Virus record (IMG/VR): IMGVR_UViG_3300005764_001667
Coordinates: 1-56,241 of that record
Length of the DNA stretch: 56,241 bases
Origin: a virus
Lineage: Duplodnaviria > Caudoviricetes
Direction: 5' to 3' (one strand)
The position numbers were made by a program, and so were the translations under genes. Every line of letters begins with the position of its first letter. The stretch's first letter is position 1. The notes beneath the pieces were generated by a model. The model was given only the letters and a program-made list of their open reading frames with translations, was not told the origin of the DNA and made no database searches. Shown one piece after another: positions 7,440 to 56,192 of the stretch.

Positions 7440-7650
7440 CCGTCTCGACCCAGCACACCGCCCCACAGGAGAGTGGTTTGTCGGGCCGGTAAACGACACG
7501 AGCAACCTCCACGCCCTGCGAGTCGTAGATCACGACTTCGTGAGCGTAGTGGTTGCTCTTGTAGGTTTTAACGGTAATGACCGGCTCGCGGGCACCCGTC
7601 TTCCGGTTTGATTTAATCCGGTGCTGGTTGACGTGGATTATGGTTTTCAT
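7417..7650 (-). CDS. conserved small phage protein
   Basis: MKTIIHVNQH...PVITVK...PDKPLSCGA.CWVET, a pattern I recall from large-phage hypotheticals. Confidence 0.65.
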   Translation of the reverse strand: MKTIIHVNQHRIKSNRKTGAREPVITVKTYKSNHYAHEVVIYDSQGVEVARVVYRPDKPLSCGAVCWVETVNQVRLQ

Positions 7651-9247
7651 ACCGTTGGAACAATGGGGTGGGGCGTCCCTGGTTCAGAATATCGCGTGCC
7701 ACCCCCAAATCATAATCCAGACGACCCTCCGGCTGGTATAGCAGTTGGCGGAAATATTCCAGGTCCACTTCCTCCCAGGGTTTGCGGAAGGTAAACGACT
7801 CGTATATCTTCCGCGAGGTCTGTGGCAATATCGGTTTGAGCAGGATCGCCACCGCCCGCAGCCCGTTCATCAGGTTGCCGATGACCCCCGCCGCCTTCTC
7901 GCGGTCGGTCTTGATGAGCGCCCAGGGTTTCTGCTCGTCAATAAAACGGTTCATCGCCGCCAGGTCGCGCCAAATGTTCTCCAGCACGGTGCGGTAGAAA
8001 CAGTTCTCGATATTGTCGCAGTACGCCAGGTAGGCGTTGGCACCGAACGGCACGATCCCTTCCGGCTGCTCGGTCACCGACAGGTCGCCGTCGAAATAAC
8101 GGATGGCCATGCTGACGGTGCGGCTCAGCAGGTTGCCCAGGTTGTTGGCCAGGTCGGCGTTATAAACCTCGACAAAGTGATCGAAACTGAATTCACCGTC
8201 GCTGCCGTAGTCGCAGCGACTCAGGAAGTAATAGCGGTAGGCGTCACAGCCGAACTCCTTGACCAGTTCCATCGGGTCGAGGAACTTCCCGCTTTTGCTG
8301 GCCTTTTCGCCGTCGATGTTGATGAAGCCGTGGGCGAAGACCTTCTTTGGAAGCTCCAGTTCGTAGTAAGAACCCTCGTGGCCCTCGTTGTAGGCAATAA
8401 TCATGGCGGGCCAGAGAGCGCAGTGAAACTTGGTAATGTCCTTGCCAATGAAATGCACATCGGCAGGCCACCACGTCATGTCCGGCCCTTCCTTGTCCAT
8501 GCCCACCCCGGTCAGGTAGTTGAGCAGGGCGTCAAACCAAACGTAGATCACCTGGCTGTGGTCCCAGGGGACCGGAATGCCCCAGCCCTCGTTGCGGCGG
8601 CTGATGGAAATATCAAGCGGCTCACCGTCCGGGTCGTCCAGTTCAAAGGACACAAACTTCACGACCTCGTTATATCGGGACTCCGGCTCGATCACCAAAT
8701 CCGGGCCGGCGATGGCTTTCGGAGCCAGCATGTTAATGAGCTTGTTGCGGAACTTGTGAAGAAGGAAAAAGTAGTTCTCCTCCTCGGTCGTGCGAAGCTC
8801 CTGCTTGGGGTGGTTGGGACAGCGCCCGTCCACAACCTCCTTGGTCGTCTTGTAGGCTTCGCAGCCGTCACAATACAGGCCGGAGTATTTGCGCTTCTCG
8901 ATGAAGCCGGCCTTGTTCACCATCTGAATAAAGTGCTGGACGCCCTCGCGGTGGCGCTGTTCGGTGGTCTGGATAAAGCCGTCGTAGGAAATATCGAGGG
9001 CGTCCCACACGGCTTTGAACTCTGCGGCCATGCGGTCGCAGTACGCCTTGGGGTCTTCACCGAGATCGCGGGCACGCTGGGCGACCTTCCAGGTGTTCTC
9101 GTCGTTGCCCATCAAAAAGAAAACATCGTCGCCTTTGAAGCGACGATAGCGGGCCTGCACGTCGGCACCGATCTTCTCGAAGGCCGTCCCGATGTGGGGA
9201 CGGCTGTTGGGGTAGTCAATGGCCGTGGTCAGGAAAAACTTCGCCAT
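7613..9247 (-). CDS. metG: methionyl-tRNA synthetase (544 aa, no C-terminal dimerisation domain)
   Basis: TTAIDYPNSRPHIGT (HIGH variant), CxxC knuckle, ISISR, YVWFDAL, IGKDI, KASKS, NADLANNLGNL; SD GAGGG before ATG 9247. Confidence 0.95.
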   Translation of the reverse strand: MAKFFLTTAIDYPNSRPHIGTAFEKIGADVQARYRRFKGDDVFFLMGNDENTWKVAQRARDLGEDPKAYCDRMAAEFKAVWDALDISYDGFIQTTEQRHREGVQHFIQMVNKAGFIEKRKYSGLYCDGCEAYKTTKEVVDGRCPNHPKQELRTTEEENYFFLLHKFRNKLINMLAPKAIAGPDLVIEPESRYNEVVKFVSFELDDPDGEPLDISISRRNEGWGIPVPWDHSQVIYVWFDALLNYLTGVGMDKEGPDMTWWPADVHFIGKDITKFHCALWPAMIIAYNEGHEGSYYELELPKKVFAHGFINIDGEKASKSGKFLDPMELVKEFGCDAYRYYFLSRCDYGSDGEFSFDHFVEVYNADLANNLGNLLSRTVSMAIRYFDGDLSVTEQPEGIVPFGANAYLAYCDNIENCFYRTVLENIWRDLAAMNRFIDEQKPWALIKTDREKAAGVIGNLMNGLRAVAILLKPILPQTSRKIYESFTFRKPWEEVDLEYFRQLLYQPEGRLDYDLGVARDILNQGRPTPLFQRYENHNPRQPAPD

Positions 9248-9827
9248 AGTAGCCCTCCTCTTCCAGACCGCATTGCTCACAGTGGTTGGTGGGGCACAGA
9301 CCAAGCATGACCGGGCAATCTTCCAGCCCGTACTTGCACCCATGCTTGGTGCAGCAGTGCGTGGTGCAGCACAGGTTCCGCTCCAGTACATCCTTCTCCC
9401 AATCGGCCTCCAGGTCTGTTTTCGCGTCCGCCATCATTGTAGATGGCTTCGGGTCCGTAAAGAACGCCTGCGGTTCCTTCAACTTGCTCGTTTTTGGCCA
9501 GGGGCAGGGCACACGCTGGTTTTGCTGGTTAAAAAAGACCCGCTCCTTCACCCGCTTGTTCCCATCGCAGACCTTACACACGCCATTCTGCTGGAACCCG
9601 AAGGCAAATCCAGTGGCCTGACAGGACCGACAGGGGAACCCTTTCTCCTCGATCTCGTTCTCCTTGAGCCAGGCAAACAGGCACGCCAAGTTACAAAAGA
9701 AGTATTCCCACTTGGGCTGGTCGTAGTGGTGACAAGCCGGGCAAACGCGGTTCTCGTACTCGAAGGACAACTGCAAGTCAAACGACCCCTCGGCACCGCA
9801 GTGGGAACAGTGGATGACGCAAATCAT
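9216..9827 (-). CDS. Cys-rich zinc-finger protein
   Basis: Multiple CxxC pairs, including DnaJ-like CxxCxxxG. Confidence 0.6.
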   Translation of the reverse strand: MICVIHCSHCGAEGSFDLQLSFEYENRVCPACHHYDQPKWEYFFCNLACLFAWLKENEIEEKGFPCRSCQATGFAFGFQQNGVCKVCDGNKRVKERVFFNQQNQRVPCPWPKTSKLKEPQAFFTDPKPSTMMADAKTDLEADWEKDVLERNLCCTTHCCTKHGCKYGLEDCPVMLGLCPTNHCEQCGLEEEGYYGEVFPDHGH

Positions 9828-11841: not shown

Positions 11842-12373
11842 AGATGTCCTCCATAAAAGGTTGTTTCATTCCAATCCGCACCCCGACTTGATGCCGTTGC
11901 CGGCCACGGCTGGGGCCGTGATCGCGGACCACCCACCGGCGCACGTCGCCCATCATGAGCGGGATGATGAGGCGAAGGTTGGGCATCAGCCGCTTGTCGT
12001 CCTGCACCGTCATCCAGTCGTACCAGCCGATCTGTTCGCACTCGCCGTCGCGGGGCTGGATTTTCTGGGCGTAATAAACGTCCTCCTTGACGCAGTACAC
12101 AGTGCAGTCGTCACAGTCGATCTTGCCCATCAGCTTGGTGTCGATATAGGCAATGGCCGGGTCATATTCACAGATCGGCTCCAGGCCCGCCTCCTCCTTC
12201 AACTCCCGCACGGCGGCATCCAGTATAGATTCACCCGGCTCCACTTTTCCGCCGGGGAGGTTGAGGCACCCCTTCTGCCAGGCGGGCTTCTGCTTCTCGA
12301 TGAGCAGGACGTTGCGCCAGTAGGGGTCGTTGATGGGGTTGGCGTACACCACGACATATTCAGGCTTATTCAT
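11822..12373 (-). CDS. NUDIX hydrolase
   Basis: Nudix box GGKVEPGE...AAVRELKEEAGL. Confidence 0.92.
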   Translation of the reverse strand: MNKPEYVVVYANPINDPYWRNVLLIEKQKPAWQKGCLNLPGGKVEPGESILDAAVRELKEEAGLEPICEYDPAIAYIDTKLMGKIDCDDCTVYCVKEDVYYAQKIQPRDGECEQIGWYDWMTVQDDKRLMPNLRLIIPLMMGDVRRWVVRDHGPSRGRQRHQVGVRIGMKQPFMEDIYEGTER

Positions 12374-24355: not shown

Positions 24356-25183
24356 ATGGGACTGCCACCTTTATTTTCGCAGCGTATGCTGATGTGCTGG
24401 CCCAGGCACTATCAAGTTTGCTATAAGATCAACCCCTGGATGAAGCCCGACGAGCCGGACCAGGCGGTTAAAAGGTCGCTCGCCGTCAAGCAGTGGATCA
24501 ATCTTCATCATACCCTCATTCGCCTTGGCGTCTTTGTGGAATACATCGACGCCACCCCCGCTATACCCGATCACGTCTTTACCGCCAACGCCGGATTGAT
24601 TTATGGCGAAAAGGTGGTATTATCCAATTTCAAATACAAGGAGCGGCAGAAGGAACGCCGTAAATACCATCGCTGGTTCGAGGACCATTGCCTTGAAGTC
24701 AAGACCCTTCCCGCCAAGCTTCACTTCGAGGGGGCTGGTGACGCACTGTTTGTTGGTGATACCTTATACGGTGGTTTTGGTTTTCGCTCTGATTATCTCG
24801 CTCATATTCAGGTCGCTGATACGCTGGGAATCAAGAAGTTCCATCTTCTCAAGCTTGTCGATCCTCGTTTTTATCATCTGGATACCTGTTTTTGTCCTCT
24901 GCGGAGCAATACGGCTCTTGTATTCCCGGACGCCTTCGACCCCGAATCCCTGGCTGTGATGGACTCGCACCTGAACATGGTGCCGGTCCCGCCCCAGGAG
25001 GCCGAAAGATTTGCTTGCAACGCCGTCGTCCTCAACAACGACATCGTGATTCCGAAAGGCTGTCCGTTGACGCGGGAGCGACTGATCGGGGAGAACTTTC
25101 GCGTATATGAAGTCGAGATGGGGGAGTTCATCAAGGCCGGCGGTGCCTGCAAGTGTTTGACCCTGAATTTAGGTGTAATATGA
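24356..25183 (+). CDS. amidinotransferase/dimethylargininase family protein
   Basis: INPWM, PD.VFTANAG, FEGAGD, FYHLDTCF, FIKAGGACKCL. Confidence 0.9.
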   Translation: MGLPPLFSQRMLMCWPRHYQVCYKINPWMKPDEPDQAVKRSLAVKQWINLHHTLIRLGVFVEYIDATPAIPDHVFTANAGLIYGEKVVLSNFKYKERQKERRKYHRWFEDHCLEVKTLPAKLHFEGAGDALFVGDTLYGGFGFRSDYLAHIQVADTLGIKKFHLLKLVDPRFYHLDTCFCPLRSNTALVFPDAFDPESLAVMDSHLNMVPVPPQEAERFACNAVVLNNDIVIPKGCPLTRERLIGENFRVYEVEMGEFIKAGGACKCLTLNLGVI

Positions 25184-26121
25184 AACAGATTAGCATGGAC
25201 TTGGTTCGCGTCACGGAGGCGGCGGCGATTTCCGCGTCGGCCTGGGTTGGGAGCGGCAATAAGGAGGAGGCGGATCGGGCGGCGACAGACGCGATGCGGG
25301 ACCGTCTGAACCAGCTTCCCATGCACGGTGTCATTCGTATTGGCGAGGGCAAGAAGGACGGGGCACCGGGATTGTTTCGCGGCGAAATCGTCGGGGGTCT
25401 GCGCGACATGGCGGTAGACCTTCATGTTCCTTCGCTCGATATTGCGGTGGACCCCATCGACGGCACCCGGCAGACCACCATCGCCGGCCCGGAAGCCATC
25501 AGCGTACTGGCGGTCGCGGACCACAACACCATGTTCCATACCGACGATTTCTACATGCTGAAATTGGCCTACGGCCCGGAGATCGCCACCCGGACCACCC
25601 TGAACGTGGACGCCCCGCTCAAAGACACCCTGGGGCGGGTTGCCAAGGCCATTTATAAACAGATCGAGAAGTTGACCGTCTGCATTTTAGACCGTCCGCG
25701 TCACGCGGAATATATTGATGAAATGCGGCGCTGTGGTTGCCGCATCAAACTCATTCAGGACTGCGATATTTCCGGGGCCATCGCCACCTGCCTGCCCGAT
25801 AGCGGCGTGGACCTGCTGTTCGGCATCGGCGGTGCCCCGGAGGCGGTTATCACGGCCTGCGCCATGAAATGCTTGGGCGGCAACATGGACTGCCTTATTT
25901 GGGACCAGAAAAGCGGCGAACAAACGGGCTATGCTCGCGGCCAGCCCTATACCCTAAAGCATTTGGTGGACGGCAATTGCTGCTTTGCGGCCACCGGCGT
26001 GACCAACGGCAGCTTGCTCAAGGGGGTACGCTGGACGCAGCACGGCCCGATCACCAACAGCGTCTTCATGCGGTCGGAGAGCGGCACAGTGCGTTGGCTA
26101 ATCACGGAGCATGGGAACTAA
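25180..26121 (+). CDS. glpX: fructose-1,6-bisphosphatase class II
   Basis: RVTEAAA, IGEG, DIAVDPIDGT, LDRPRH, GIGGAPE, AATGVT.G. Confidence 0.95.
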   Translation: MKQISMDLVRVTEAAAISASAWVGSGNKEEADRAATDAMRDRLNQLPMHGVIRIGEGKKDGAPGLFRGEIVGGLRDMAVDLHVPSLDIAVDPIDGTRQTTIAGPEAISVLAVADHNTMFHTDDFYMLKLAYGPEIATRTTLNVDAPLKDTLGRVAKAIYKQIEKLTVCILDRPRHAEYIDEMRRCGCRIKLIQDCDISGAIATCLPDSGVDLLFGIGGAPEAVITACAMKCLGGNMDCLIWDQKSGEQTGYARGQPYTLKHLVDGNCCFAATGVTNGSLLKGVRWTQHGPITNSVFMRSESGTVRWLITEHGN

Positions 26122-33717: not shown

Positions 33718-33969
33718 ATGCCAAAACTTGGCTTTTGGTGGTGGGTCAGGGCGTATTTCAAAGTCTGTTTCAGCCGTGAAATGTGGCTGAACTGGCTTTT
33801 CGTCATCTTCTACGTTCTGATGCTGGCCACCCACCTGGAACGCGGCTCTTTCGACCCCTGGTTGCTAGTCAAACAAGGGCTTCTTTTGGTTGTCATGGCT
33901 CTGGTGTTCGGGGCGATGGGTGTCATCGGGGCGATGATAAAACTGCGAGATCAAAATGGACCATCGTGA
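33718..33969 (+). CDS. small membrane protein
   Basis: Two hydrophobic segments, TGATG coupling. Confidence 0.55.
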   Translation: MPKLGFWWWVRAYFKVCFSREMWLNWLFVIFYVLMLATHLERGSFDPWLLVKQGLLLVVMALVFGAMGVIGAMIKLRDQNGPS

Positions 33970-35158
33970 AATCGGGCGGCGGTTGGACCTGTTCATGCAG
34001 CACGAGCTTGCGCCGGGCTGCCCAATCTGGCTGCCCAACGGCACCTTGATTTACAACCTGTTGGCGGACAGAATCCGCAAGTTCAACGCCCAGCACGGCT
34101 ACCACGAGGTCCGCACGCCGGTCCTGTGGAACCACGAGCTTTATAAACTGTCCGGGCATTGGGACCACTACCAGGACTTCATGTATGGCGTCCACGGGCG
34201 GGAGGAGGACAAACTCTATAACCTCAAGCCCATGAACTGCCCTGGGCACATGCTGATCTTCAAAAGCAAGCAGTGGTCGTACCAGGACTTGCCCTACCGT
34301 CTCCATGACCAGGGGATATTGCACCGCGATGAAACCTCCGGGGCCGTAGGGGGTCTGACCCGGTGCCGGGCCTTCTGCCAGGACGACGGCCATGTGTTCC
34401 TGCGACCCGACCAGATCGCTCAGGAAGTCGAGGACATGATAAAGATGGTGGAAACCATCTACGTCGAGCGCTTTGCCATGCACGACTTCCGCATGGCTCT
34501 GTCTACCCGCCCCGAAGACTTCATGGGCGATCCCGGCGAGTGGGACCACGCCGAGGCCCAGCTTCGGCTGGCCATCAATCGCCCCGGTGCGAAGTTCACC
34601 ATCGAGGGAGGCGGTGGCGCGTTCTACGGACCCAAAATCGACTTCTTCGTTAAGGACAGCCAGAACAAGGAGTGGCAGACCGCCACCATCCAGCTTGACT
34701 TCCAGTTGCCGCAGCGATTCCAGTTGGAATACACGGACGAGGAGGGCGTGCGTCGGACGCCCGTGGTCATCCACCGGGCCTATTACGGCAGTTTCGAGCG
34801 CTTTATCGCCATTCTGCTGGAACATTACCAGGGCAACCTGCCGTTGTGGTTGTCCCCGGTCCAGGCAGTCTTCTTGCCGATCAGCGAGAAGCAGAACGGC
34901 TACTGCGGCACCCTCAACGCGGAGTTCAAGGCGCGGGGTCTGCGTACCGAGGTCGATACGTCCAACACTCGCATCAACGCCAAGATCGTCCACGCCAGCG
35001 AGCGGATGGTGCCGTTTATGCTGGTGGTGGGTGACCGGGAAGTGCAGAGCAGCCGCGTTAACGTGCGCCACTTCCACGACAAGGCCGAGGAGGGGGAGAA
35101 GCCCTGGCAACGAGTCATGGAGCATTTAAGCAAACTGGACCGGGAGTCCTTCTACTAA
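33956..35158 (+). CDS. thrS: threonyl-tRNA synthetase lacking N1/N2 (editing) domains
   Basis: Starts at DHREIG; SGHW.HY, KPMNCPGH, HR.E.SG..GLTR.R.F.QDD.H, AFYGPKID, TIQLDF, IHRA..GS.ERF, anticodon-binding domain. Confidence 0.96.
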   Translation: MDHREIGRRLDLFMQHELAPGCPIWLPNGTLIYNLLADRIRKFNAQHGYHEVRTPVLWNHELYKLSGHWDHYQDFMYGVHGREEDKLYNLKPMNCPGHMLIFKSKQWSYQDLPYRLHDQGILHRDETSGAVGGLTRCRAFCQDDGHVFLRPDQIAQEVEDMIKMVETIYVERFAMHDFRMALSTRPEDFMGDPGEWDHAEAQLRLAINRPGAKFTIEGGGGAFYGPKIDFFVKDSQNKEWQTATIQLDFQLPQRFQLEYTDEEGVRRTPVVIHRAYYGSFERFIAILLEHYQGNLPLWLSPVQAVFLPISEKQNGYCGTLNAEFKARGLRTEVDTSNTRINAKIVHASERMVPFMLVVGDREVQSSRVNVRHFHDKAEEGEKPWQRVMEHLSKLDRESFY

Positions 35159-39234: not shown

Positions 39235-39591
39235 CTAGGGGTCAGCACCGGGAGATAACGGGGTATCGGGCCGCTTTTGCCCTTCCGCCTTGGTTGCCTC
39301 CTTTTGCCTCCGCAACATGCCATGTTTACCTCCTTTGAGTACGCGACTCGGATAGTTTATATAGCCGTCCATGCCTTCATCTTCCTTTTTCTTCTCGTCG
39401 TATTCATAAAACGACGAGTAGTCGTCGGTGATTACCACCTGCAAGTCGTGGTGGTGAATCAAGTAGTCCTTGTACTGCGAGCGGTCGGCTTCGTTGTAAA
39501 CCCGGAAGAACAGTTCCCCGTTCACGCCGCGTAGCAAGTAGCCCTTGACGTTGTGGGCCGAGGTTTCATTGGCTTGGAAGGTTCGTTCCAT
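39235..39591 (-). CDS. hypothetical protein
   Basis: ORF downstream of valS. Confidence 0.6.
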   Translation of the reverse strand: MERTFQANETSAHNVKGYLLRGVNGELFFRVYNEADRSQYKDYLIHHHDLQVVITDDYSSFYEYDEKKKEDEGMDGYINYPSRVLKGGKHGMLRRQKEATKAEGQKRPDTPLSPGADP

Positions 39592-40957
39592 GTTGCACCT
39601 TGGGTTTGAGTTTGATGAGGGTGCCTGGCATGAACACCCCCATGTATTCGCGCATGTCGTCGTAGATGGCCCGTAATGTGCCGTTCATGGGCTGGCGCTT
39701 GGATTCTTCAATCCGAATGGCGCAGAAACGGTGCCAGAAGTATTCAAAGAACAACTCGCCGGCCTCCGGCCAGTCATAGTCCTCGAAGGCGGCATTGATG
39801 CCCGCTTTGCGGTCCAGCCACTCCTTCCAGACTGCCTCGTTGGTGGTCTGGTCCGCGTGCATTTCCAAGAAACGCTCCGCGTTGCGCCACTTGGTAACAC
39901 ACCGTTTCCCGTATTCCATGCACACAGGGTTGATGCGGGTGTCGGAGCCGATGGTGGACTGTGCGGCCCAATAGCGAACGCCATCGGACGTGTGCTGGTC
40001 GAAGTATTCATTCGGCGGCTTGTAGTTTCCCTCCGTCTTGGAGATTTTCTTCCCTTTGGGGTCCAGGGCGTGACCACTGATGACGATGGTGCGCCAGGGA
40101 ATCTGATCGTTGTGGAGGACGCTTTTAATGATGGTGAATAGCGCCCAGGTGCGGATGATGTCGTGGGCCTGGAACCGAACGTCAAATATCGGACACTTGA
40201 GCGTGTTCTGGTATTTCCCTTCCTCATGCCAGGCTAGTTGCGGTGATAAACTGGACGTGTGCCAGGTGTCGAAGACGATGCCGGGCGGTTCTCCGGGGAT
40301 GGGGATGCCGTAGTTTCGCTCGCGGCTGATCGACCAGTCCTGGTTGCACTGGTCCAGCCAGGCCAGCAGGCGGTCTTTATATTTCTGCGGCTTCCAAACG
40401 ATCTGGTTGATGGCGGCGCGGATGCGTGGCAGGTTGTCGAGGACTTTTATGAACCAGCCCTCGCCCCGCCGGATTTCGACCTTTTCGCCGCTTCGCTCGT
40501 ACCGCCCGTCCTCGGTCAGTTCGTTTTGGGAGACGGAAACCTTGGTGACCGGGCAGAAGAAATAGTCCCGCTCGGCTTTGTACGCCTGGCCCTTGGCCAC
40601 CAAGTCGTGGAACGAGAGTTCGGCCAGGCGGACGGCGAAGGGGCTGAAAGTGCTATAGTGATGCCACGAGTAGGCCATCGCCAGGCGCATGAACAGGATG
40701 TGGTAGGCGAGGGCTTCGCCGTGGGAGAACCCGATGATTTGGTCTTGCTGCATAATGCCCGCAGCGTGGGCCAGTTTCTCCGTTGGGAGGCCGTTGTTGT
40801 CGTAACAGTACGGGTAGACGAGGTATTCGTCTTTTATGTGTCTGTGGTATCGGGCAATGAAGTCCATCTGGGCGTAGCTGAAAACATGGCCCATGTGGAG
40901 GGTGCCGCTAACGGTAGGCGGCGGAACGTCGATGAGGAATTTTCTGTCCTTGTTCAT
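39566..40957 (-). CDS. valS: minimal valyl-tRNA synthetase (463 aa; CP1 editing, CP2 and coiled-coil absent)
   Basis: ID.PPPTVSG.LHMGH, DNNGLPTE, DWSISR, FDTW..SS, QAHDIIRTW, KISKT. Confidence 0.92.
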   Translation of the reverse strand: MNKDRKFLIDVPPPTVSGTLHMGHVFSYAQMDFIARYHRHIKDEYLVYPYCYDNNGLPTEKLAHAAGIMQQDQIIGFSHGEALAYHILFMRLAMAYSWHHYSTFSPFAVRLAELSFHDLVAKGQAYKAERDYFFCPVTKVSVSQNELTEDGRYERSGEKVEIRRGEGWFIKVLDNLPRIRAAINQIVWKPQKYKDRLLAWLDQCNQDWSISRERNYGIPIPGEPPGIVFDTWHTSSLSPQLAWHEEGKYQNTLKCPIFDVRFQAHDIIRTWALFTIIKSVLHNDQIPWRTIVISGHALDPKGKKISKTEGNYKPPNEYFDQHTSDGVRYWAAQSTIGSDTRINPVCMEYGKRCVTKWRNAERFLEMHADQTTNEAVWKEWLDRKAGINAAFEDYDWPEAGELFFEYFWHRFCAIRIEESKRQPMNGTLRAIYDDMREYMGVFMPGTLIKLKPKVQHGTNLPSQ

Positions 40958-41063
40958 GGCGCAGTTGTCGGTTAGGGTGCGTGAAACGGCTGGGGTTGCG
41001 ATCCCACAAGGACTCGCAACCCTGACGCACGCCGACAACAAACCTGACTGCAACAAGGTGCAT
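40908..41063 (-). promoter_or_regulatory. Val-rich leader peptide/attenuator of valS
   Basis: TATAAT(41070-41075)-N6-ATG; MHLVAVRFVVGVR... has 5 Val in the first 12 codons, the last three lying in a long hairpin that ends a few nt before the valS ATG. Confidence 0.65.
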
Positions 41064-46671: not shown

Positions 46672-46699
46672 TCCGTAAAGGAGTATGCCAAGTTGAAAA

Positions 46700-46784
46700 T
46701 GCCCCCGCCAGGACTCGAACCCGGACACCCGTTACAGGTACTTGGGCCTAAGCCAAGCGCGTCTACCTTTTCCGCCACGGGGGC
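46700..46784 (-). tRNA. tRNA-Leu(UAG)
   Basis: GCCCCCG/CGGGGGC+A73, loop CT-TAG-GC, long variable arm, GGTTCGAGTCC; no encoded CCA. Confidence 0.95.
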
Positions 46785-46788
46785 AATG

Positions 46789-50554: not shown

Positions 50555-51094
50555 CTACCACTCAATATACTGCGCCGGAACGTGATCTGTTAACCAGACT
50601 CCGTTCTCGGACTGGTAGAATTTGTAGCCGGCGTCGTGCATGTCGCCGGCACGCACACGCAGAATCACGGGTCTTCCGCGCCGCAGGGCGACCTTGCGGG
50701 CCGTTTCCTGGTCCGGGGACAGGTGAACGTGATGCCGCCGCATCTTGTGCAGCCCTTTTTCCCTTATGGTGGGGGCAAACCGATCCACGGTGCCGTGAAA
50801 CAGATGGTTGGGAGGTCGTTTTTCAACAAGCTGGAGATCAACCGGAGTGGAGTGACCCTGGTTGGCGCGGATGAGGGTTTGCGTCTCGTCCAGCGAGAAG
50901 CGTTTCTTGTCGTTGTTATCCACGCATTCTTTTATTTCCTCCGGCGTGACCGGGAATCCTTGTTGACGAGCGCCCTCGATGACGCTGGCCAGAGAAACCC
51001 AGCCGCCGGGCATCAACGTCAGGCCCAGGGCCTCCGGCTCGTGCCGCAGGTACTTGGCGAGGAACTTGCTCACGCGAATATGTCGGGGTGTCAT
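50555..51094 (-). CDS. kptA: RNA 2'-phosphotransferase (Tpt1/KptA)
   Basis: SKFL...LRH, K.RF, IRANQGHS, FHGT, RHHVHLS, SENGVWL. Confidence 0.95.
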   Translation of the reverse strand: MTPRHIRVSKFLAKYLRHEPEALGLTLMPGGWVSLASVIEGARQQGFPVTPEEIKECVDNNDKKRFSLDETQTLIRANQGHSTPVDLQLVEKRPPNHLFHGTVDRFAPTIREKGLHKMRRHHVHLSPDQETARKVALRRGRPVILRVRAGDMHDAGYKFYQSENGVWLTDHVPAQYIEW

Positions 51095-51663
51095 GATGAA
51101 TACTGCTTTACGGCGATTCGGGAATAGCGGAGAACGTCGTCCAGGGTTCCGTAGCGCGGCCACGGGATGGTGGTGATGAAGTCGGGGTCTTCTTTTGAGT
51201 TAGCCTCCCACGTTTTCCAGTCCGGGCCGTTGGCATCACTAACCCGGTCGTCATTGACATACGCATGTGCCTTCAGGTAACCGCCGTGCAGGCTGGCGCT
51301 CTGGGTCCAAATGCTGCTCCAGAACGAGGAGATGACCGCCTTGAAGAAACTTTCCTCCTCCGGGTAGCCGTTTTTCACGCTCTCCATGCAAATACGCAAG
51401 TCCTGGTTATAGACGTTCCACAAGTTCGGGTAGAAAAGGCATTGGTCCCGTTGACGCAGGGATTCGTTGCGGAACGCCAGGTGCAAGGTGATGTGGTGGT
51501 GCCTGGTATATGCAATAATAAATACCAGCCAAGGAAAGGCCAGGAAGTGGGTATAGTGTTTAGCAGCGCGATCATGCTCCGATACGCGGACGGAGATTAC
51601 TCGACAACACGGCGGCGTTTCGAGGACCGCGATCCCGTCCTCAGCATAGCGAAGCCTCAACAT
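51091..51663 (-). CDS. possible prokaryotic E2 family D-like protein
   Basis: FP.LVF...L.NVY...IC...FW.S pattern. Confidence 0.4.
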   Translation of the reverse strand: MLRLRYAEDGIAVLETPPCCRVISVRVSEHDRAAKHYTHFLAFPWLVFIIAYTRHHHITLHLAFRNESLRQRDQCLFYPNLWNVYNQDLRICMESVKNGYPEEESFFKAVISSFWSSIWTQSASLHGGYLKAHAYVNDDRVSDANGPDWKTWEANSKEDPDFITTIPWPRYGTLDDVLRYSRIAVKQYSS

Positions 51664-51678
51664 ACATCGCGGCTCCTT

Positions 51679-52011
51679 TTATTTGCAGCACCATGCGATG
51701 AGGCACGCGACCCCAAGCACGCAGAGGCCGATAGCGACCCAATACCACCAGGCCGATCCGTGACGGGCGCGTGGCACCCACATCGTTATGTGCGGCTTGT
51801 GGTGCTGGGCGGCGTCCTGGCGTGTGAGCTTATCGAGGAACAGGTGGCAGTTGCCGCAGTAGTGCTGTTGAATATCGTCCCGGTTGTAGCTGGTCATGCC
51901 GCACAGGTGGCAGGTTATGCCGCCGTCGCGGACGGTGTAATTTTTACCCTGGTGTTCTTTCTTGGCCTGCTCCAAGTGCTGTTGGATAAGCCGGCGATTA
52001 CTTTGAGTCAT
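51679..52011 (-). CDS. Zn-finger membrane-anchored protein
   Basis: CHLCG..S....D....YCGNCH; C-terminal TM. Confidence 0.55.
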   Translation of the reverse strand: MTQSNRRLIQQHLEQAKKEHQGKNYTVRDGGITCHLCGMTSYNRDDIQQHYCGNCHLFLDKLTRQDAAQHHKPHITMWVPRARHGSAWWYWVAIGLCVLGVACLIAWCCK

Positions 52012-53179
52012 AATGCACCCGCTCCCCGAAAATGTGCGGCACGAAGCGGCTCATGTTCTGGGTGATCCGGCCCCCGTCCTCGCGGACGCCCATGCCGCAA
52101 GCCCAGCCGTTGACGATCCAGCTTCCGATCACCGGGAAGTGGCCGTCGAAATTTGGAAGTTCCCAAAGTTCTTGGTATATTGCAGGGCCGTCGTATGGCC
52201 CCTCCGTCTCCTCCACCTTCTCGCCATGCTCGAAGATGGCGATGTTGGCACCCTCCCGTGACAAGATCGGTTTCTTCACATAATCCTTGATGTCGTGGAT
52301 TTCCAGGTCCACCGGGTCGAAGTAGCACGCCAGCAAGTAAGTGTTGTTCGGATACAACTCCCACAACGTCGGCAGTAGTGCCTTGTTGCTTAACAGGGAC
52401 TTCCAGGGCGGCTCCCACCACTTGGTCCGGGCCTGGCGCAGATACGGGCCAAACTGCTCGCGCATCAGCCATTCCCAGGGGTAGAGTTTGAAGATTTGTT
52501 TGATCTCCCGCTCTTGCAAGTCGGTGAAGATGCCGCTCGCCTGGTTCCAGCCCACGTCGTCTATGTCCAGGTACTCCACCCCCGCCAACGGCCCGAAGCC
52601 CGCCTGCACGGCCACGTCCTTGAGGTAGTTGACGGTCATGTAGTCTTCGACGCTGCCCTTGAGCGCTGCGAAATAAAAACGCTCATCCCCGACCTGTTCG
52701 CGGATGACTTTGAAGACTTCGAGGAGGCGGTCGTGGATGCTGTTGAACTGGTCGCCGCCCGGATGCACGTCTTTCAACCAGAACCACTGGATCACCGAGG
52801 CTTCGAGCAGGGACGTTGGCGTGTCGGCGTTGTACTCAAAAAGCATCGGGTCGTGGCCGGGCTGGAAGCAGAAGTCGAAGCGACCGTAGATGGTGTGGTC
52901 ATCTTCTTCCCAGGAGCGCACGATGTAGTCGTCGTAACCGGGCGGGATTTGGAAGCGGTCGAAAAGATCGTGGTCGATGATGTGCTGCACCGCCGCCAGG
53001 CACATCTCGTTGAGGGCGTAAGTGGCCTTCTCGATCTGGTCCACTTCTGCGCGGCTGAATTCGTAGTAGGCAGACTCGTTCCAGTAGGGCGCACCGTCCT
53101 CGCTGGTGTGGAAATAGAGTCCCTGGCCTTCCACTATTTTCTGCCAGTTCTCACGAGGTTCCACCGTGAGCCTTCGCAT
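51998..53179 (-). CDS. glutathionylspermidine synthase family ATP-grasp ligase (YgiC/YjfC-like)
   Basis: YW.E.AYY, YGRFD, EYNADTPTSLLEA, FKLYPWEW, EPPWK..LSNK, KP..SREGAN, RED. Confidence 0.93.
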   Translation of the reverse strand: MRRLTVEPRENWQKIVEGQGLYFHTSEDGAPYWNESAYYEFSRAEVDQIEKATYALNEMCLAAVQHIIDHDLFDRFQIPPGYDDYIVRSWEEDDHTIYGRFDFCFQPGHDPMLFEYNADTPTSLLEASVIQWFWLKDVHPGGDQFNSIHDRLLEVFKVIREQVGDERFYFAALKGSVEDYMTVNYLKDVAVQAGFGPLAGVEYLDIDDVGWNQASGIFTDLQEREIKQIFKLYPWEWLMREQFGPYLRQARTKWWEPPWKSLLSNKALLPTLWELYPNNTYLLACYFDPVDLEIHDIKDYVKKPILSREGANIAIFEHGEKVEETEGPYDGPAIYQELWELPNFDGHFPVIGSWIVNGWACGMGVREDGGRITQNMSRFVPHIFGERVHYDSK

Positions 53180-54086: not shown

Positions 54087-55370
54087 TTATACCGGGTGGT
54101 CCAAAGGTTGTAAAGCCAAACCAGGGGCGAAGCAGTGGAGCATCGGGAGCAGCGCCGCCACCGTCGCGGGGGAAGGCTTTTTCTCCCGATTCTTGTTGTA
54201 AAACCCCATCAGGGTGGAGACGACCTTGTTGACCTTCCAGCTTTGTAAGTAGTGGTGGACCTGGGCGTGGAGATCGGTCAGGTCGATGTCGTTTTCACCG
54301 GGCTGGGACAGCCAGCGCCGCAGCCGGCCCAGGAACCGGCGAATACCCGTGATGGCTTTGTCGTCCCAATCACCCCCTTCCTGATACGGTCCCAGGAACA
54401 TTAGATAAAGGCGCAGTTCGTCGGGGTCGTAATCGTCGGGGTTGACGGCGTTGCCTTTGCTTTTTCCCATCTTGGCACCGCCCGCCGTTATCATGCCCTG
54501 GTGGACGACGTGTTTGAAGGGTTCCTCCTGCGTGACGATGCCCAAGTCGTAGAGGAACATATTGATAAAGCGGGCGTAGATCAGGTGCATACACGCATGT
54601 TCCGGCCCGCCAACGTACAGGTCCACCGGCTGATAGTTGTGGGCGTGCAGGAAAACCTCCGGGTCATTTTCCAGGTAGCGGAGGAAATAAAAGCTGGAAT
54701 CCACGAACGTGTCCAGCGTGTCCGTGTCGCCCTCGATGGGGATGGGGCAACCCCACTTGCGTTGGCGGGACACGCACCAGTCACGCAGGCCCTCCAGCCA
54801 GACCCTCTGCTGCTTGCGGGTGCCTTCGGGGTAGTCGATCCGGTCCAGGTTGTCGATGAGCCGGTCCTTGTAGGCGGTGATTTTGAAATACCACTGGTTG
54901 AGTTGGCGGACCTCCGGCTTGGCGCTACAACGATTGCAGTAGCCACCGCTCACCTGCTCGTTCGCCAGCACGGTGTCGCAGGAGGGGCAGTAGTTGACCG
55001 GGCCGAAGGCTTTGTACGCCAGCCCCTTGTTCTTCAGCAGGGTGAAGAGCCACTGCGTCCATTTGTAGTAGGAAGGGTCACAAGTCACCAGCTTTTCTTC
55101 GTACTGCGTGTTCATGCGGGCCATCTGCGCCCGGAACCGTTCGATGTTGCCCCAGGTGACGGTCTTGGGGTCGCCGCCGATGGAGCGGGCGTAGTTCTCC
55201 GCAGGCAGGCCGAAGGCGTCGTAGCCGAAGGGCTGGAAGACTTCGGTGCCGAGGTAACGCAGCCACCGGCAGTAGGAGTCCACGATTGCGTAGTTGTAGC
55301 AGTGCCCCAGGTGCAGGCCCGCGCCGGACGGGTAGGGAAACATCACGCAGCAATAGAATGGTTTACTCAT
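54087..55370 (-). CDS. leuS: minimal leucyl-tRNA synthetase (427 aa; CP1, CP2, Leu-specific and C-terminal domains absent)
   Basis: MFPYPSGAGLHLGH, DAFGLPAEN, YYKWTQW.F, TVLANEQV, LRDW..SRQR.WG.PIP, DTFVDSS, YVGG.EHA..HL.YARF, KMGKSKGN. Confidence 0.95.
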   Translation of the reverse strand: MSKPFYCCVMFPYPSGAGLHLGHCYNYAIVDSYCRWLRYLGTEVFQPFGYDAFGLPAENYARSIGGDPKTVTWGNIERFRAQMARMNTQYEEKLVTCDPSYYKWTQWLFTLLKNKGLAYKAFGPVNYCPSCDTVLANEQVSGGYCNRCSAKPEVRQLNQWYFKITAYKDRLIDNLDRIDYPEGTRKQQRVWLEGLRDWCVSRQRKWGCPIPIEGDTDTLDTFVDSSFYFLRYLENDPEVFLHAHNYQPVDLYVGGPEHACMHLIYARFINMFLYDLGIVTQEEPFKHVVHQGMITAGGAKMGKSKGNAVNPDDYDPDELRLYLMFLGPYQEGGDWDDKAITGIRRFLGRLRRWLSQPGENDIDLTDLHAQVHHYLQSWKVNKVVSTLMGFYNKNREKKPSPATVAALLPMLHCFAPGLALQPLDHPV

Positions 55371-55518
55371 TCTTACGGACTCCAGGCCACCACGTTCGCA
55401 GGTTCGCTTCCGCCGCCTCCGCTTTATATTTCAAAAACAGGGCAATTAGAAACTCCCGGCGCACTTCGTCCGGGAGTTGTTCGATTTTGTCGAGGATGTT
55501 CTTTTCGTCTTCGCTCAT
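55363..55518 (-). CDS. 51-aa hypothetical protein
   Basis: Manual translation MSEDEKNILDKIEQLPDEVRREFL..., coupled to both neighbours. Confidence 0.5.
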   Translation of the reverse strand: MSEDEKNILDKIEQLPDEVRREFLIALFLKYKAEAAEANLRTWWPGVRKNE

Positions 55519-56192
55519 TTTTTCGCTCGTACAAACTTCTGGGTGTCTTTATTGTACGAGGCGAAAAGCCTGAATTCCTTGACGCAGTTAATGTCCCACA
55601 GTACGCCGCTCGCGCAGTCCCAGCCGTAATACCATTGGGACAGCAGCCGCTTCTGGTAGAGGTAGGGGGCGATCTCCACGCCCGCATATTTCTCAGCCAC
55701 CGCCGGCCAGTCGATATAATCCATCCGCAGGCCACCGTCCCGGCGGCGCAGGGGTTTCAGGATCGCCTTCAGGCGTTCGTCCCGTTCCCAGGGCGGGCCG
55801 CAGGAGAACTCGTCCTCGAAGTCTTCAAACTCCTTAATGGTAGCAATGACACGCAGGGCGCTGGTGTCCACAACCAGTTCGTAGAAGTAGCGTTCACTGC
55901 CTCGGAAACGCTCACATAGGCACCAGTCAGCCCAGGAGCCGTCGATCCCCCACCAAAAGCCGGTTGGGACTGGTTCCGGCTGTTCCAGCGAGTACGTCGC
56001 CGGCTTATAGTCCAATTGGTCCGGCGGGTATTCAATCTCCAGCTTCTTGATCTTCTTCTTCGACAAGTGCAGGCGGCGGTCCCCTTTGAGGCGGTCGATA
56101 AATTTCCGCATCGCCGTGTTGACCGGGCTGGCTTCGTGGCGGCGATGGTGCGCCCGCGTCTTCTTGATGCGTTCCTTGAGAGACTTGTCCAT
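55515..56192 (-). CDS. hypothetical protein
   Basis: IDW..V...YAG.EI...WYYGWDCASG motif; upstream TAAATA. Confidence 0.7.
   Translation of the reverse strand: MDKSLKERIKKTRAHHRRHEASPVNTAMRKFIDRLKGDRRLHLSKKKIKKLEIEYPPDQLDYKPATYSLEQPEPVPTGFWWGIDGSWADWCLCERFRGSERYFYELVVDTSALRVIATIKEFEDFEDEFSCGPPWERDERLKAILKPLRRRDGGLRMDYIDWPAVAEKYAGVEIAPYLYQKRLLSQWYYGWDCASGVLWDINCVKEFRLFASYNKDTQKFVRAKK

What the first reader, a model, noticed from the sequence alone, without database searches (positions are those of the whole stretch)
54087..55370. Natural 'urzyme-like' LeuRS
Seen: QQRVW-LEG-LRDW joins the flanks of CP1. PIP-IEG-DTDTLDT removes the CP2 insertion. QGMI-TAGGA-KMGKS removes the Leu-specific domain. 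The protein ends just after the anticodon-bundle 'FAP' helix, so there is no C-terminal tRNA-binding domain. Catalytic motifs are intact (HLGH, KMGKS). Inference: close to a minimal class Ia core; how it recognises tRNA is unclear.
Basis: partly seen in the sequence, partly recalled or inferred. Interest (0 to 1): 0.85.

Follow-up and report, generated by a model that had tools for sequence, protein, structure and literature searches.

The report
Stripped-down LeuRS of huge phages
A huge soil phage encodes a half-sized leucyl-tRNA synthetase that keeps the catalytic core but lacks the proofreading domain and the tRNA-gripping tail, and this form is conserved in many huge phages, so it is a natural test of how little protein is needed to charge tRNA-Leu.

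Summary
Window 54087-55370 (-) is an intact 427-aa bacterial-type LeuRS (TIGR00396 E 1e-117). Compared with solved and full-length LeuRSs it lacks the N-terminal helix, the CP1 editing domain, the ~50-residue Zn2 module, the leucine-specific domain, the last anticodon-domain helix and the C-terminal tRNA-binding domain. HIGH, KMSKS, the zinc CP1 hairpin and the leucine-pocket residues are kept. It is not a fragment. More than 100 homologues of 409-458 aa (64-81% identical) lie on phage contigs up to 634 kb. All 19 related loci have intact ORFs, dN/dS is 0.15, and the AlphaFold model is confident (pLDDT 93). The same window also holds a CP1-less ValRS, a ThrRS without its editing half, and a MetRS. 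tRNA-Leu genes often lie next to the gene. "Urzyme-like" overstates it: at 427 aa it keeps the CP1 hairpin, CP2 and most of the anticodon-binding domain. Its nearest solved structure is Mycoplasma mobile LeuRS. The most likely role is an editing-free phage LeuRS. How it binds tRNA without the C-terminal domain is open, because deleting that domain abolishes aminoacylation in E. coli and T. thermophilus LeuRS. I found no published description. I rate it a new variant of a known kind.

The parts
54087..55370 (-). mini-LeuRS coding sequence, 427 aa plus stop
   Evidence: ORF. TIGR00396 E 9.9e-118. PDB LeuRS hits. AF2 pLDDT 93.3. Foldseek top 50 are all LeuRS.
55302..55313 (-). HIGH signature HLGH (residues 20-23)
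   Evidence: Translation. H20 and H23 are invariant in the 119-sequence alignment.
54927..54989 (-). CP1 hairpin / ZN1 zinc knuckle, C128-x2-C131 ... C145-x2-C148 (retained)
   Evidence: Aligned to Tt 'CPKC...CWRH'. C128, C131 and C145 are invariant and C148 nearly so.
54777..54800 (-). junction WLEG|LRDW (residues 191-198), where the CP1 editing domain (188-269 aa in full-length relatives) is absent
54717..54746 (-). junction PIPIEG|DTDT (residues 209-218), where the 45-70-residue Zn2 module is absent
   Evidence: The module name comes from PMC9424281.
54474..54500 (-). QGMITAGGA (residues 291-299), a short linker in place of the leucine-specific domain
   Evidence: Tt 580-635 unmatched. The 13 longer relatives have the same short linker.
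54459..54473 (-). KMSKS signature KMGKS (residues 300-304)
   Evidence: M301 and K303 are invariant.
54123..54362 (-). truncated anticodon-binding helical domain (residues 337-416, four helices, ends at FAP)
   Evidence: DSSP of the model. Alignment. Net charge is +4.3 in minis against -0.3 in full-length relatives.
46699..46785 (-). tRNA-Leu(UAG), long variable arm, A73 in the Rfam frame, no encoded CCA. It is the only tRNA in the window, 7.3 kb from the LeuRS gene.
39566..41056 (-). mini-ValRS, 496 aa, without the CP1 editing domain and the C-terminal parts
   Evidence: NF009687 332 bits against a cut-off of 738. Alignment to Tt ValRS 1gax in three blocks. Family of forms <=499 aa.
33956..35158 (+). 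ThrRS of 400 aa: catalytic plus anticodon-binding domains only (E. coli ThrRS 243-626), with no N1/N2 editing half
7613..9391 (-). MetRS, 592 aa

Best explanation
The gene encodes a working, editing-free leucyl-tRNA synthetase of a huge (about 0.5 Mb) soil phage. The catalytic core activates leucine with ATP, as canonical bacterial LeuRS does, using the Rossmann fold, the zinc CP1 hairpin and the CP2 helices. It then transfers leucine to tRNA-Leu, from the phage and probably also the host, recognised mainly through the acceptor end and A73. The shortened, unusually basic helical domain would give backbone contacts in place of the lost C-terminal domain. Without CP1 it cannot clear mischarged tRNA, so accuracy rests on the synthetic site alone. 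With the editing-less ValRS and ThrRS, the MetRS and the phage tRNAs, it would keep translation supplied during infection. Shown: the homology, the domain losses, conservation of the catalytic residues, purifying selection, the fold, spread in huge phages, and linkage to tRNA-Leu genes. Inferred: leucine activation, tRNA charging without a partner, and the role in infection.
For: The identity as LeuRS is clear. TIGR00396 scores 394.5 bits against 137.6 for the next family (ValRS), and the Foldseek top 50 are all LeuRS. The mini forms sit inside bacterial LeuRS as one clade (SH-like 100; FastTree, 113 rows).

The catalytic machinery is kept. M10, Y13, D51, E257, H258, H262, H20, H23 and K303 are invariant, and F11 is nearly invariant (>=90%), in 119 family members. 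They align to Tt M40, F41, Y43, D80, E540, H541, H545, HMGH and VMSKS; the roles of these residues are recalled, not tested here. By motif position, E138, R147, W191, Y265 and GPEHA correspond to the N. gonorrhoeae residues E169, R178, W223, Y554 and GIEHA, which drive adenylate formation (PMC9424281, passages).

The gene is real and under selection. All 19 related loci carry an intact ORF; 18 are 410-432 aa and L009's ORF is 510 aa only because of an upstream start. dN/dS is 0.148 against L007. The 120 best homologues have a median length of 421 aa. The model has pLDDT 93.3 and pTM 0.92.

The setting is phage. The window is an IMG/VR record estimated 11% complete. Relatives lie in complete 452- and 519-kb phage records with terminal repeats and in GenBank LR745206.1, 634,780 bp.

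There is a link to tRNA-Leu. 8 of 19 related loci have at least one tRNA-Leu in the flank, and 6 of these have 4-7. 34 of 124 flank tRNAs are Leu, against 6 of 41 in the whole genome G002. 37 of 39 phage tRNA-Leu carry A73 (with the Rfam frame for the window's tRNA).

There are precedents. M. mobile LeuRS, which lacks CP1 and the LSD, charges tRNA and mischarges Ile (PMC3643597, passages). The same window has a ThrRS equal to the active truncated E. coli form and a CP1-less ValRS, and each belongs to its own huge-phage family.

The retained anticodon-domain columns carry +4.3 net charge in 60 minis, against -0.3 in 60 full-length LeuRSs.
Against: Deleting the C-terminal domain abolishes aminoacylation in T. 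thermophilus and E. coli LeuRS, and that domain holds the G19:C56 elbow (PMC3561953, introduction passage). This protein lacks it, plus the last anticodon-domain helix and Zn2. The HMM score is below NCBI's curated cut-off (394.5 < 548.4). There are no biochemical data and no expression data. 11 of 19 related loci have no tRNA-Leu in the fetched flank. The enrichment of tRNA-Leu is only about twofold, and the loci are related to each other. The charge contrast compares one clade with many, so it is not a set of independent observations. Amino-acid specificity could have drifted.
Confidence: 0.6

Rival explanations
1. It is the catalytic subunit of a two-part enzyme. A separate phage or host protein supplies tRNA binding in trans, as Arc1p/Trbp111-type domains and the split Aquifex LeuRS do. 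Alone it would charge tRNA poorly.
For: The C-terminal domain is essential in E. coli and T. thermophilus LeuRS (PMC3561953, passage). One complete relative (G005) encodes a stand-alone tRNA_bind (PF01588) protein, E 2.5e-20, in a 118-aa frame about 10 kb upstream of its mini-LeuRS.
Against: PF01588 is found in only 1 of 5 related phage records. No piece of the LeuRS C-terminal domain or editing domain turns up elsewhere in the window or in the 5 records. No flanking gene is shared beyond the closest relative L007 (1 of 19 loci).
Confidence: 0.15
2. It is a leucine-activating enzyme that no longer serves translation. It would make Leu-AMP for transfer to another acceptor (a small molecule, protein or nucleic-acid modification), or bind tRNA-Leu without charging it, like Sulfolobus LeuRS-I.
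For: It has lost every accessory tRNA-binding module. LeuRS-I binds tRNA and makes the adenylate but does not aminoacylate (PMC9437257, passage). Neighbouring genes include a glutathionylspermidine synthase and glycosyltransferases.
Against: The anticodon-binding helices are conserved and basic. tRNA-Leu arrays abut the gene in 6 loci. ValRS and ThrRS are reduced in the same way in the same genome. The neighbours are not conserved across the family.
Confidence: 0.12
3. It is a decaying remnant or an assembly or gene-calling artefact.
For: The score is below the curated family cut-off, and the length is half the normal one.
Against: 19 of 19 loci are intact with the same architecture. dN/dS is 0.148. 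There are 84 invariant columns across 119 sequences. The fold is confident. The stretch is held by soil DNA runs from several studies (5 runs hold at least half of the sampled words, and 3 of these may be the source).
Confidence: 0.03

Closest known systems
Mycoplasma mobile LeuRS (PDB 3ziu; PMC3643597)
   Same: Both are bacterial-type LeuRS that naturally lack the CP1 editing domain and the leucine-specific domain, each replaced by a short linker. It is the best structural match (TM 0.89-0.90 on the query, 33% identity). It is known to charge tRNA-Leu and to mischarge Ile.
   Different: M. mobile LeuRS (637-residue chain) keeps the N-terminal helix, the Zn2-site insertion, the full anticodon-binding domain and the C-terminal tRNA-binding domain. 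The phage protein lacks all four and is about 210 residues shorter. M. mobile's is a cellular housekeeping enzyme, whereas this is a phage accessory gene.
Canonical bacterial LeuRS (T. thermophilus 1h3n, E. coli 4aq7, N. gonorrhoeae 6q89; TIGR00396)
   Same: The catalytic core, HIGH/KMSKS, the zinc CP1 hairpin, the CP2 helices and the leucine-pocket residues are shared, with 45-52% identity over the shared core to full-length representatives.
   Different: There is no editing domain, Zn2, LSD or C-terminal domain, and the N terminus and the anticodon-binding domain are truncated. The score is below the curated cut-off.
LeuRS urzyme LeuAC (PMC10450160)
   Same: Both are LeuRS forms without the editing domain and the C-terminal domain.
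   Different: LeuAC is a designed 129-residue construct from archaeal LeuRS with no connecting peptide and no anticodon-binding domain. The phage protein is natural, has 427 residues and keeps the CP1 hairpin, CP2 and most of the anticodon-binding domain.
Editing-less natural synthetases: yeast mitochondrial 'minimalist' ThrRS (PMC4267643, abstract seen in the search listing) and the truncated E. coli ThrRS of PDB 1evk
   Same: The design is the same: catalytic core plus tRNA-binding domain without the editing module. The window's own 400-aa ThrRS matches E. coli ThrRS 243-626.
   Different: These are a different synthetase class, and they keep their complete tRNA-binding domain.
Non-charging LeuRS paralogues (Sulfolobus LeuRS-I, haloarchaeal LeuRS2; PMC9437257)
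   Same: They are extra LeuRS copies with a damaged or missing editing function and a changed C terminus.
   Different: They are archaeal-type, full-sized and cellular. They have no relation in sequence beyond the LeuRS family.

Membership tests
Bacterial-type leucyl-tRNA synthetase (TIGR00396 / LeuRS-B) | Class I Rossmann catalytic domain with HIGH and KMSKS signatures | tested here: met
   HLGH 20-23 and KMGKS 300-304. PF00133 E 7.5e-39. H20, H23 and K303 are invariant in 119 sequences.
Bacterial-type leucyl-tRNA synthetase (TIGR00396 / LeuRS-B) | Closest to LeuRS rather than to ValRS, IleRS or MetRS | tested here: met
   TIGR00396 scores 394.5 bits against 137.6 for ValRS, 127.8 for MetRS and 126.8 for IleRS. 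The PDB and Foldseek top hits are all LeuRS. It is nested in the LeuRS tree.
Bacterial-type leucyl-tRNA synthetase (TIGR00396 / LeuRS-B) | Leucine and adenylate pocket residues (Tt M40, F41, Y43, D80, E540, H541, H545; roles recalled) | tested here: met
   They align to M10, F11, Y13, D51, E257, H258 and H262. All are invariant or nearly invariant in the family.
Bacterial-type leucyl-tRNA synthetase (TIGR00396 / LeuRS-B) | Zinc CP1 hairpin, with the editing domain inserted after it (bacterial arrangement) | tested here: met
   The hairpin with 4 Cys is present. The gap for the editing domain lies after it, at residues 194/195.
Bacterial-type leucyl-tRNA synthetase (TIGR00396 / LeuRS-B) | CP1 editing domain (PF13603) | tested here: not met
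   Tt 225-417 has no counterpart. There is a 188-269-residue gap against the full-length relatives. PF13603 is over its cut-off in 0 of 5 related phage records.
Bacterial-type leucyl-tRNA synthetase (TIGR00396 / LeuRS-B) | C-terminal tRNA-binding domain | tested here: not met
   The protein ends 11 residues after FAP, whereas relatives have 76-103 more residues. No match to model positions beyond 762 was found in the window or in the 5 records.
Bacterial-type leucyl-tRNA synthetase (TIGR00396 / LeuRS-B) | Score above NCBIfam's curated cut-off | tested here: not met
   394.5 bits against a cut-off of 548.4, as expected for a protein that covers half of the model.
Bacterial-type leucyl-tRNA synthetase (TIGR00396 / LeuRS-B) | Leucylation of tRNA-Leu | not testable with these tools
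   This needs ATP-PPi exchange and aminoacylation assays.
Class I aaRS urzyme (about 130 residues) | Only the two halves of the Rossmann core, with no connecting peptide and no anticodon-binding domain | tested here: not met
   It has 427 residues. The CP1 hairpin, the CP2 helices and four anticodon-domain helices are present. The urzyme is defined in PMC10450160.
M. mobile-type minimal LeuRS | CP1 and LSD replaced by short peptides while the Zn2-site insertion and the C-terminal domain are kept | tested here: not met
   The first half is met. The second half is not, because both the Zn2 module and the C-terminal domain are absent.

The most novel reading that the evidence does not exclude
The mini-LeuRS is a self-sufficient enzyme, the smallest natural LeuRS by about 200 residues. 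It would leucylate tRNA-Leu with no C-terminal domain, no editing and no partner. It may also have co-evolved with the phages' own tRNA-Leu set, which includes short-variable-loop (type I) tRNA-Leu, so that huge phages would run a private, proofreading-free leucine (and Val, Thr) charging system alongside the host's.
Probability: 0.3. Interest if true: 0.85.

Novelty: new variant of a known kind. Interest (0 to 1): 0.68.

Why it matters
LeuRS is one of the best-studied multi-domain synthetases. The editing domain, the leucine-specific domain and above all the C-terminal domain have each been assigned roles in tRNA binding, and removing the C-terminal domain abolishes aminoacylation in the E. 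coli and T. thermophilus enzymes. A conserved natural family that lacks all of them would show what the catalytic core plus a four-helix stub can do. It would therefore give a direct experimental handle on the minimal requirements for tRNA-Leu recognition. That speaks to models of synthetase evolution by domain accretion, and it offers a compact scaffold for engineering.

For phage biology, LeuRS, ValRS and ThrRS have all lost their proofreading modules in the same genomes. This suggests that huge phages accept, or exploit, lower translational accuracy during infection.

Tried and rejected
1. Artefact or fragment: rejected.

2. A longer protein through another start or read-through: rejected. 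An in-frame stop lies 20 codons upstream with no start codon between. The six-frame search with TIGR00396 finds no C-terminal-domain piece downstream.

3. A conserved neighbouring partner gene: none found. Flanking ORFs match only the closest relative L007.

4. Editing or tRNA-binding modules in trans. PF13603 is over its cut-off in 0 of 5 records; the one weak 22-bit match lies inside a 749-aa class Ia ORF of G003. PF01588 is found in 1 of 5 records.

5. A cellular origin of the family. The genome-contig scan returned 29 loci. Only L024 and L025 are true mini forms (64% and 60%), and both are MAG contigs (16.5 and 375 kb). The other 27 are lower-identity matches (28-51% in the best segment), mostly canonical LeuRS. 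The scan finds close relatives only.

7. Cluster look-up for the origin of the 530-611-aa intermediates: uninformative, giving short contigs without names.

9. Literature. Searches (terms combining LeuRS or leucyl-tRNA synthetase, editing domain, CP1, huge/jumbo/mega phage, phage-encoded, viral aaRS) listed no paper describing a truncated phage LeuRS. In passages, Al-Shayeb 2020 (PMC7162821) reports up to 15 synthetases per huge phage but nothing on domain loss. PMC7824862 and PMC13282480 say nothing relevant. Supplementary tables and information of PMC7162821 could not be opened and may list these genes.

10. I did not run complex prediction, because no specific partner is claimed.

Full report
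**What is there.** Window 54087-55370 (-) is one open reading frame of 427 codons with an ATG start. A GGAG lies about 10 nt upstream, and an in-frame stop lies 20 codons upstream with no alternative start between. Third-position GC is 0.82. The 472-codon frame on the opposite strand has GC3 0.54 and is a by-product of the high G+C content. The protein is a bacterial-type LeuRS. NCBIfam TIGR00396 gives E 9.9e-118 and 394.5 bits, against 137.6 bits for the next family, ValRS. The score stays under the curated cut-off of 548.4 because only half of the model is covered. Pfam finds the class I catalytic domain.

**Domain accounting.** phmmer against PDB sequences aligns the protein to T. thermophilus LeuRS (1h3n, E 8.7e-86) in four blocks: q6-192=Tt36-224, q194-212=Tt418-436, q208-296=Tt487-579 and q299-360=Tt636-701. 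I aligned it with 8 other family members and 13 longer relatives. The query has no counterpart for five segments:
- 27-46 N-terminal residues (in 11 of the 13 longer relatives).
- 188-269 residues at W191-L195, the CP1 editing domain (in the 7 full-length rows).
- 45-70 residues at I212-D215.
- 6-19 residues inside the helical domain.
- 76-103 residues after its last residue, which are the last helix of the anticodon-binding domain and the C-terminal domain.

In the nomenclature of the N. gonorrhoeae LeuRS paper (PMC9424281, passages) the second lost module is 'Zn2'. The leucine-specific domain of E. coli and T. thermophilus is indeed missing. It is also missing from all 13 longer relatives in the alignment, so it was probably never present in this lineage. 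The following are retained: HLGH; KMGKS; the four-Cys CP1 hairpin; the GYDAFGLPAEN, RDWxVSRQRxWG and GGxEHAxxHLxYxRF motifs; and four helices after the KMSKS loop.

**Fold.** AlphaFold2 was run on a 119-sequence family alignment and gave pLDDT 93.3 and pTM 0.92. Only the last four residues are disordered. In Foldseek against the PDB, the 50 best hits are all LeuRS. The best is Mycoplasma mobile LeuRS (3ziu), with TM 0.89-0.90 normalised on the query and 33% identity. [quoted passage not shown]

**It is a family, not an accident.**
- The word-indexed search returned 7,999 proteins. The best 120 are 383-541 aa long (median 421) and 64-100% identical, and they lie on contigs of up to 634 kb.
- At 50% clustering only one other representative has the mini length (P0121, 429 aa). 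The next are forms of 530-640 aa, and then full-length enzymes at 41-52% identity.
- Seventeen loci came from viral contigs of 13-519 kb. Two of those records have terminal repeats and are rated 100% complete, at 452 and 519 kb.
- GenBank's uncultured phage LR745206.1 (634,780 bp) carries a copy with 60% identity.
- Among one genome per species of 185,579 prokaryotes, only two MAG contigs carry a true member, with the caveat that this scan finds close relatives only.
- All 19 related loci have an intact ORF. 18 of them are 410-432 aa, and L009's is longer only because of an upstream start.
- dN/dS against the closest relative is 0.148.
- In a FastTree of 113 LeuRS rows, the mini forms plus one 530-aa form make a clade with SH-like support of 100. 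Two CP1-less forms of 569-580 aa are the nearest neighbours, at weaker support (69 and 88).
- The window itself is an IMG/VR virus record estimated 11% complete, which implies a genome near 0.5 Mb. It is held by soil metagenome runs.

**Context in the window.** The 56 kb hold four synthetases.
- A MetRS (7613-9391, 592 aa).
- A ValRS of 496 aa. Its alignment to T. thermophilus ValRS skips the editing domain and stops before the C-terminal parts.
- A ThrRS of 400 aa that equals E. coli ThrRS residues 243-626, so it lacks the N-terminal editing half.
- The mini-LeuRS.

Both short forms are themselves families on huge contigs. For ValRS, 106 of the 120 listed homologues are 499 aa or shorter, and the 13 full-length ones are at most 37% identical. 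For ThrRS, the 42 best homologues are 385-413 aa and carry no TGS or second-additional-domain hit. So every synthetase in the window that normally proofreads has lost its proofreading module. Other genes include a Tpt1/KptA RNA 2'-phosphotransferase, a glutathionylspermidine synthase, GlpX, a DNA methylase, a family A polymerase and helicases.

**tRNAs.** The window has one tRNA, not two. It is a class II tRNA-Leu(UAG) with A73, 7.3 kb from the gene. In the 19 related loci, 8 have at least one tRNA-Leu in the fetched flank, and 6 of these have four to seven. 34 of the 124 flank tRNAs are Leu, compared with 6 of 41 in the complete relative G002. Of 39 phage tRNA-Leu genes collected, 37 have A73. 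Eight are only 74-75 nt long, with a five-base variable loop. In the copies whose folds or sequences I examined (L009 and G002), the D arm is Leu-like, with a three-pair stem. Type I tRNA-Leu is known from Streptomyces coelicolor, where the normal LeuRS charges it (PMC6614811, abstract in the search listing).

**Mechanism.** The residues that hold leucine and the adenylate in T. thermophilus LeuRS align to invariant or nearly invariant positions of the family (their roles are recalled). The same holds, by motif position, for the CP1-hairpin Glu and Arg, the CP2 Trp and the GxEHA loop, which drive adenylate formation in N. gonorrhoeae LeuRS (PMC9424281). Leucine activation is therefore very likely. 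Charging without CP1 and the LSD has a natural precedent in M. mobile.

The real difficulty is the missing C-terminal domain. Its deletion abolished aminoacylation in the T. thermophilus and E. coli enzymes, and it holds the G19:C56 elbow (PMC3561953, passage). No substitute was found in cis or in trans:
- No LeuRS C-terminal or editing piece lies elsewhere in the window or in five related records.
- A Trbp111-like protein is present in only one of the five.
- There is no conserved neighbour gene.

One hint of compensation exists. The retained anticodon-domain columns carry a net charge of +4.3 (sd 2.1) in 60 mini forms, against -0.3 (sd 2.4) in 60 full-length LeuRSs. This compares one clade with many, so it is only a hint.

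I put 0.6 on an autonomous, editing-free LeuRS. I put 0.15 on a catalytic subunit that needs a partner, 0.12 on a leucine-activating enzyme outside translation, and 0.03 on a dead gene.

**Comparison and novelty.** It works like, and descends from, bacterial LeuRS. It fails two defining features of the curated family (editing domain and C-terminal domain) and the curated score. It is not an urzyme, since LeuAC has 129 residues and no connecting peptide or anticodon-binding domain (PMC10450160). It goes well beyond M. mobile LeuRS. Five literature searches, and passages of the huge-phage and jumbo-phage papers, gave no description of such a LeuRS. I rate it a new variant of a known kind, with interest 0.68.

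Noticed in passing
L009:9761-9835 and 11873-11947; L010:3395-3468 (= G002 83561-83634); G002 40849-40922; L012:8800-8873; L016:8785-8859, 9001-9075, 9085-9159: Eight phage tRNA genes with Leu anticodons are only 74-75 nt long, with a five-base variable loop. Seven of the eight have A73. In the copies whose folds or sequences were examined (L009, G002) the D arm is Leu-like with a three-pair stem. They look like type I tRNA-Leu derived from class II ones, and they sit beside normal long-arm tRNA-Leu genes and near the mini-LeuRS.
   Followed up: partly
window 39566-41056 (-): A ValRS of 496 aa lacks the CP1 editing domain and the C-terminal parts. 106 of 120 listed homologues are 499 aa or shorter, on contigs up to 673 kb.
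   Followed up: partly
window 33956-35158 (+): A ThrRS of 400 aa equals E. coli ThrRS 243-626, so it has no TGS or editing half. The 42 best homologues are all 385-413 aa.
   Followed up: partly
window 50555-51163 (-), 51998-53179 (-), 25153-26121 (+): A Tpt1/KptA RNA 2'-phosphotransferase (E 1.2e-49), a glutathionylspermidine synthase (E 3.3e-140) and a GlpX fructose-1,6-bisphosphatase (E 1.5e-108) are encoded by the phage fragment.
   Followed up: no
L011:3528-3600; G002 80119-80195: tRNAs with anticodon CUA (amber-suppressor type, called 'Pyl' by ARAGORN) occur in two related huge-phage records. This may point to stop-codon recoding in part of the clade. The window itself reads well with code 11.
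   Followed up: no
G005:C1:102849-103121 (+): A stand-alone tRNA_bind (Trbp111-like, PF01588, E 2.5e-20) frame of 118 aa lies about 10 kb upstream of that phage's mini-LeuRS. It is present in only 1 of 5 records searched.
   Followed up: partly
protein P0005 (541 aa): One family member, 72% identical, is 541 aa long and carries a precomputed reverse-transcriptase (PF00078) hit. This may be a gene call merged with a retroelement ORF.
   Followed up: no
window 54501-55919 (+): A 472-codon open frame lies antisense to the LeuRS gene. Its GC3 is 0.54, and its matches in other loci only mirror the LeuRS on the other strand. It is an artefact of high G+C, not a gene.
   Followed up: yes
window 55363-55518 (-): A 51-codon ORF overlaps the LeuRS start by 8 nt. 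It is 74% identical in the closest relative L007 and is not found in the other 18 loci.
   Followed up: partly
protein P0122 (530 aa): A 530-aa relative (54% identical) shares the Zn2 and C-terminal truncations but keeps about 115 residues at the CP1 site. It groups with the mini forms (SH-like 100), so it may be an intermediate. It is known only from contigs of 5.6 kb or less.
   Followed up: partly
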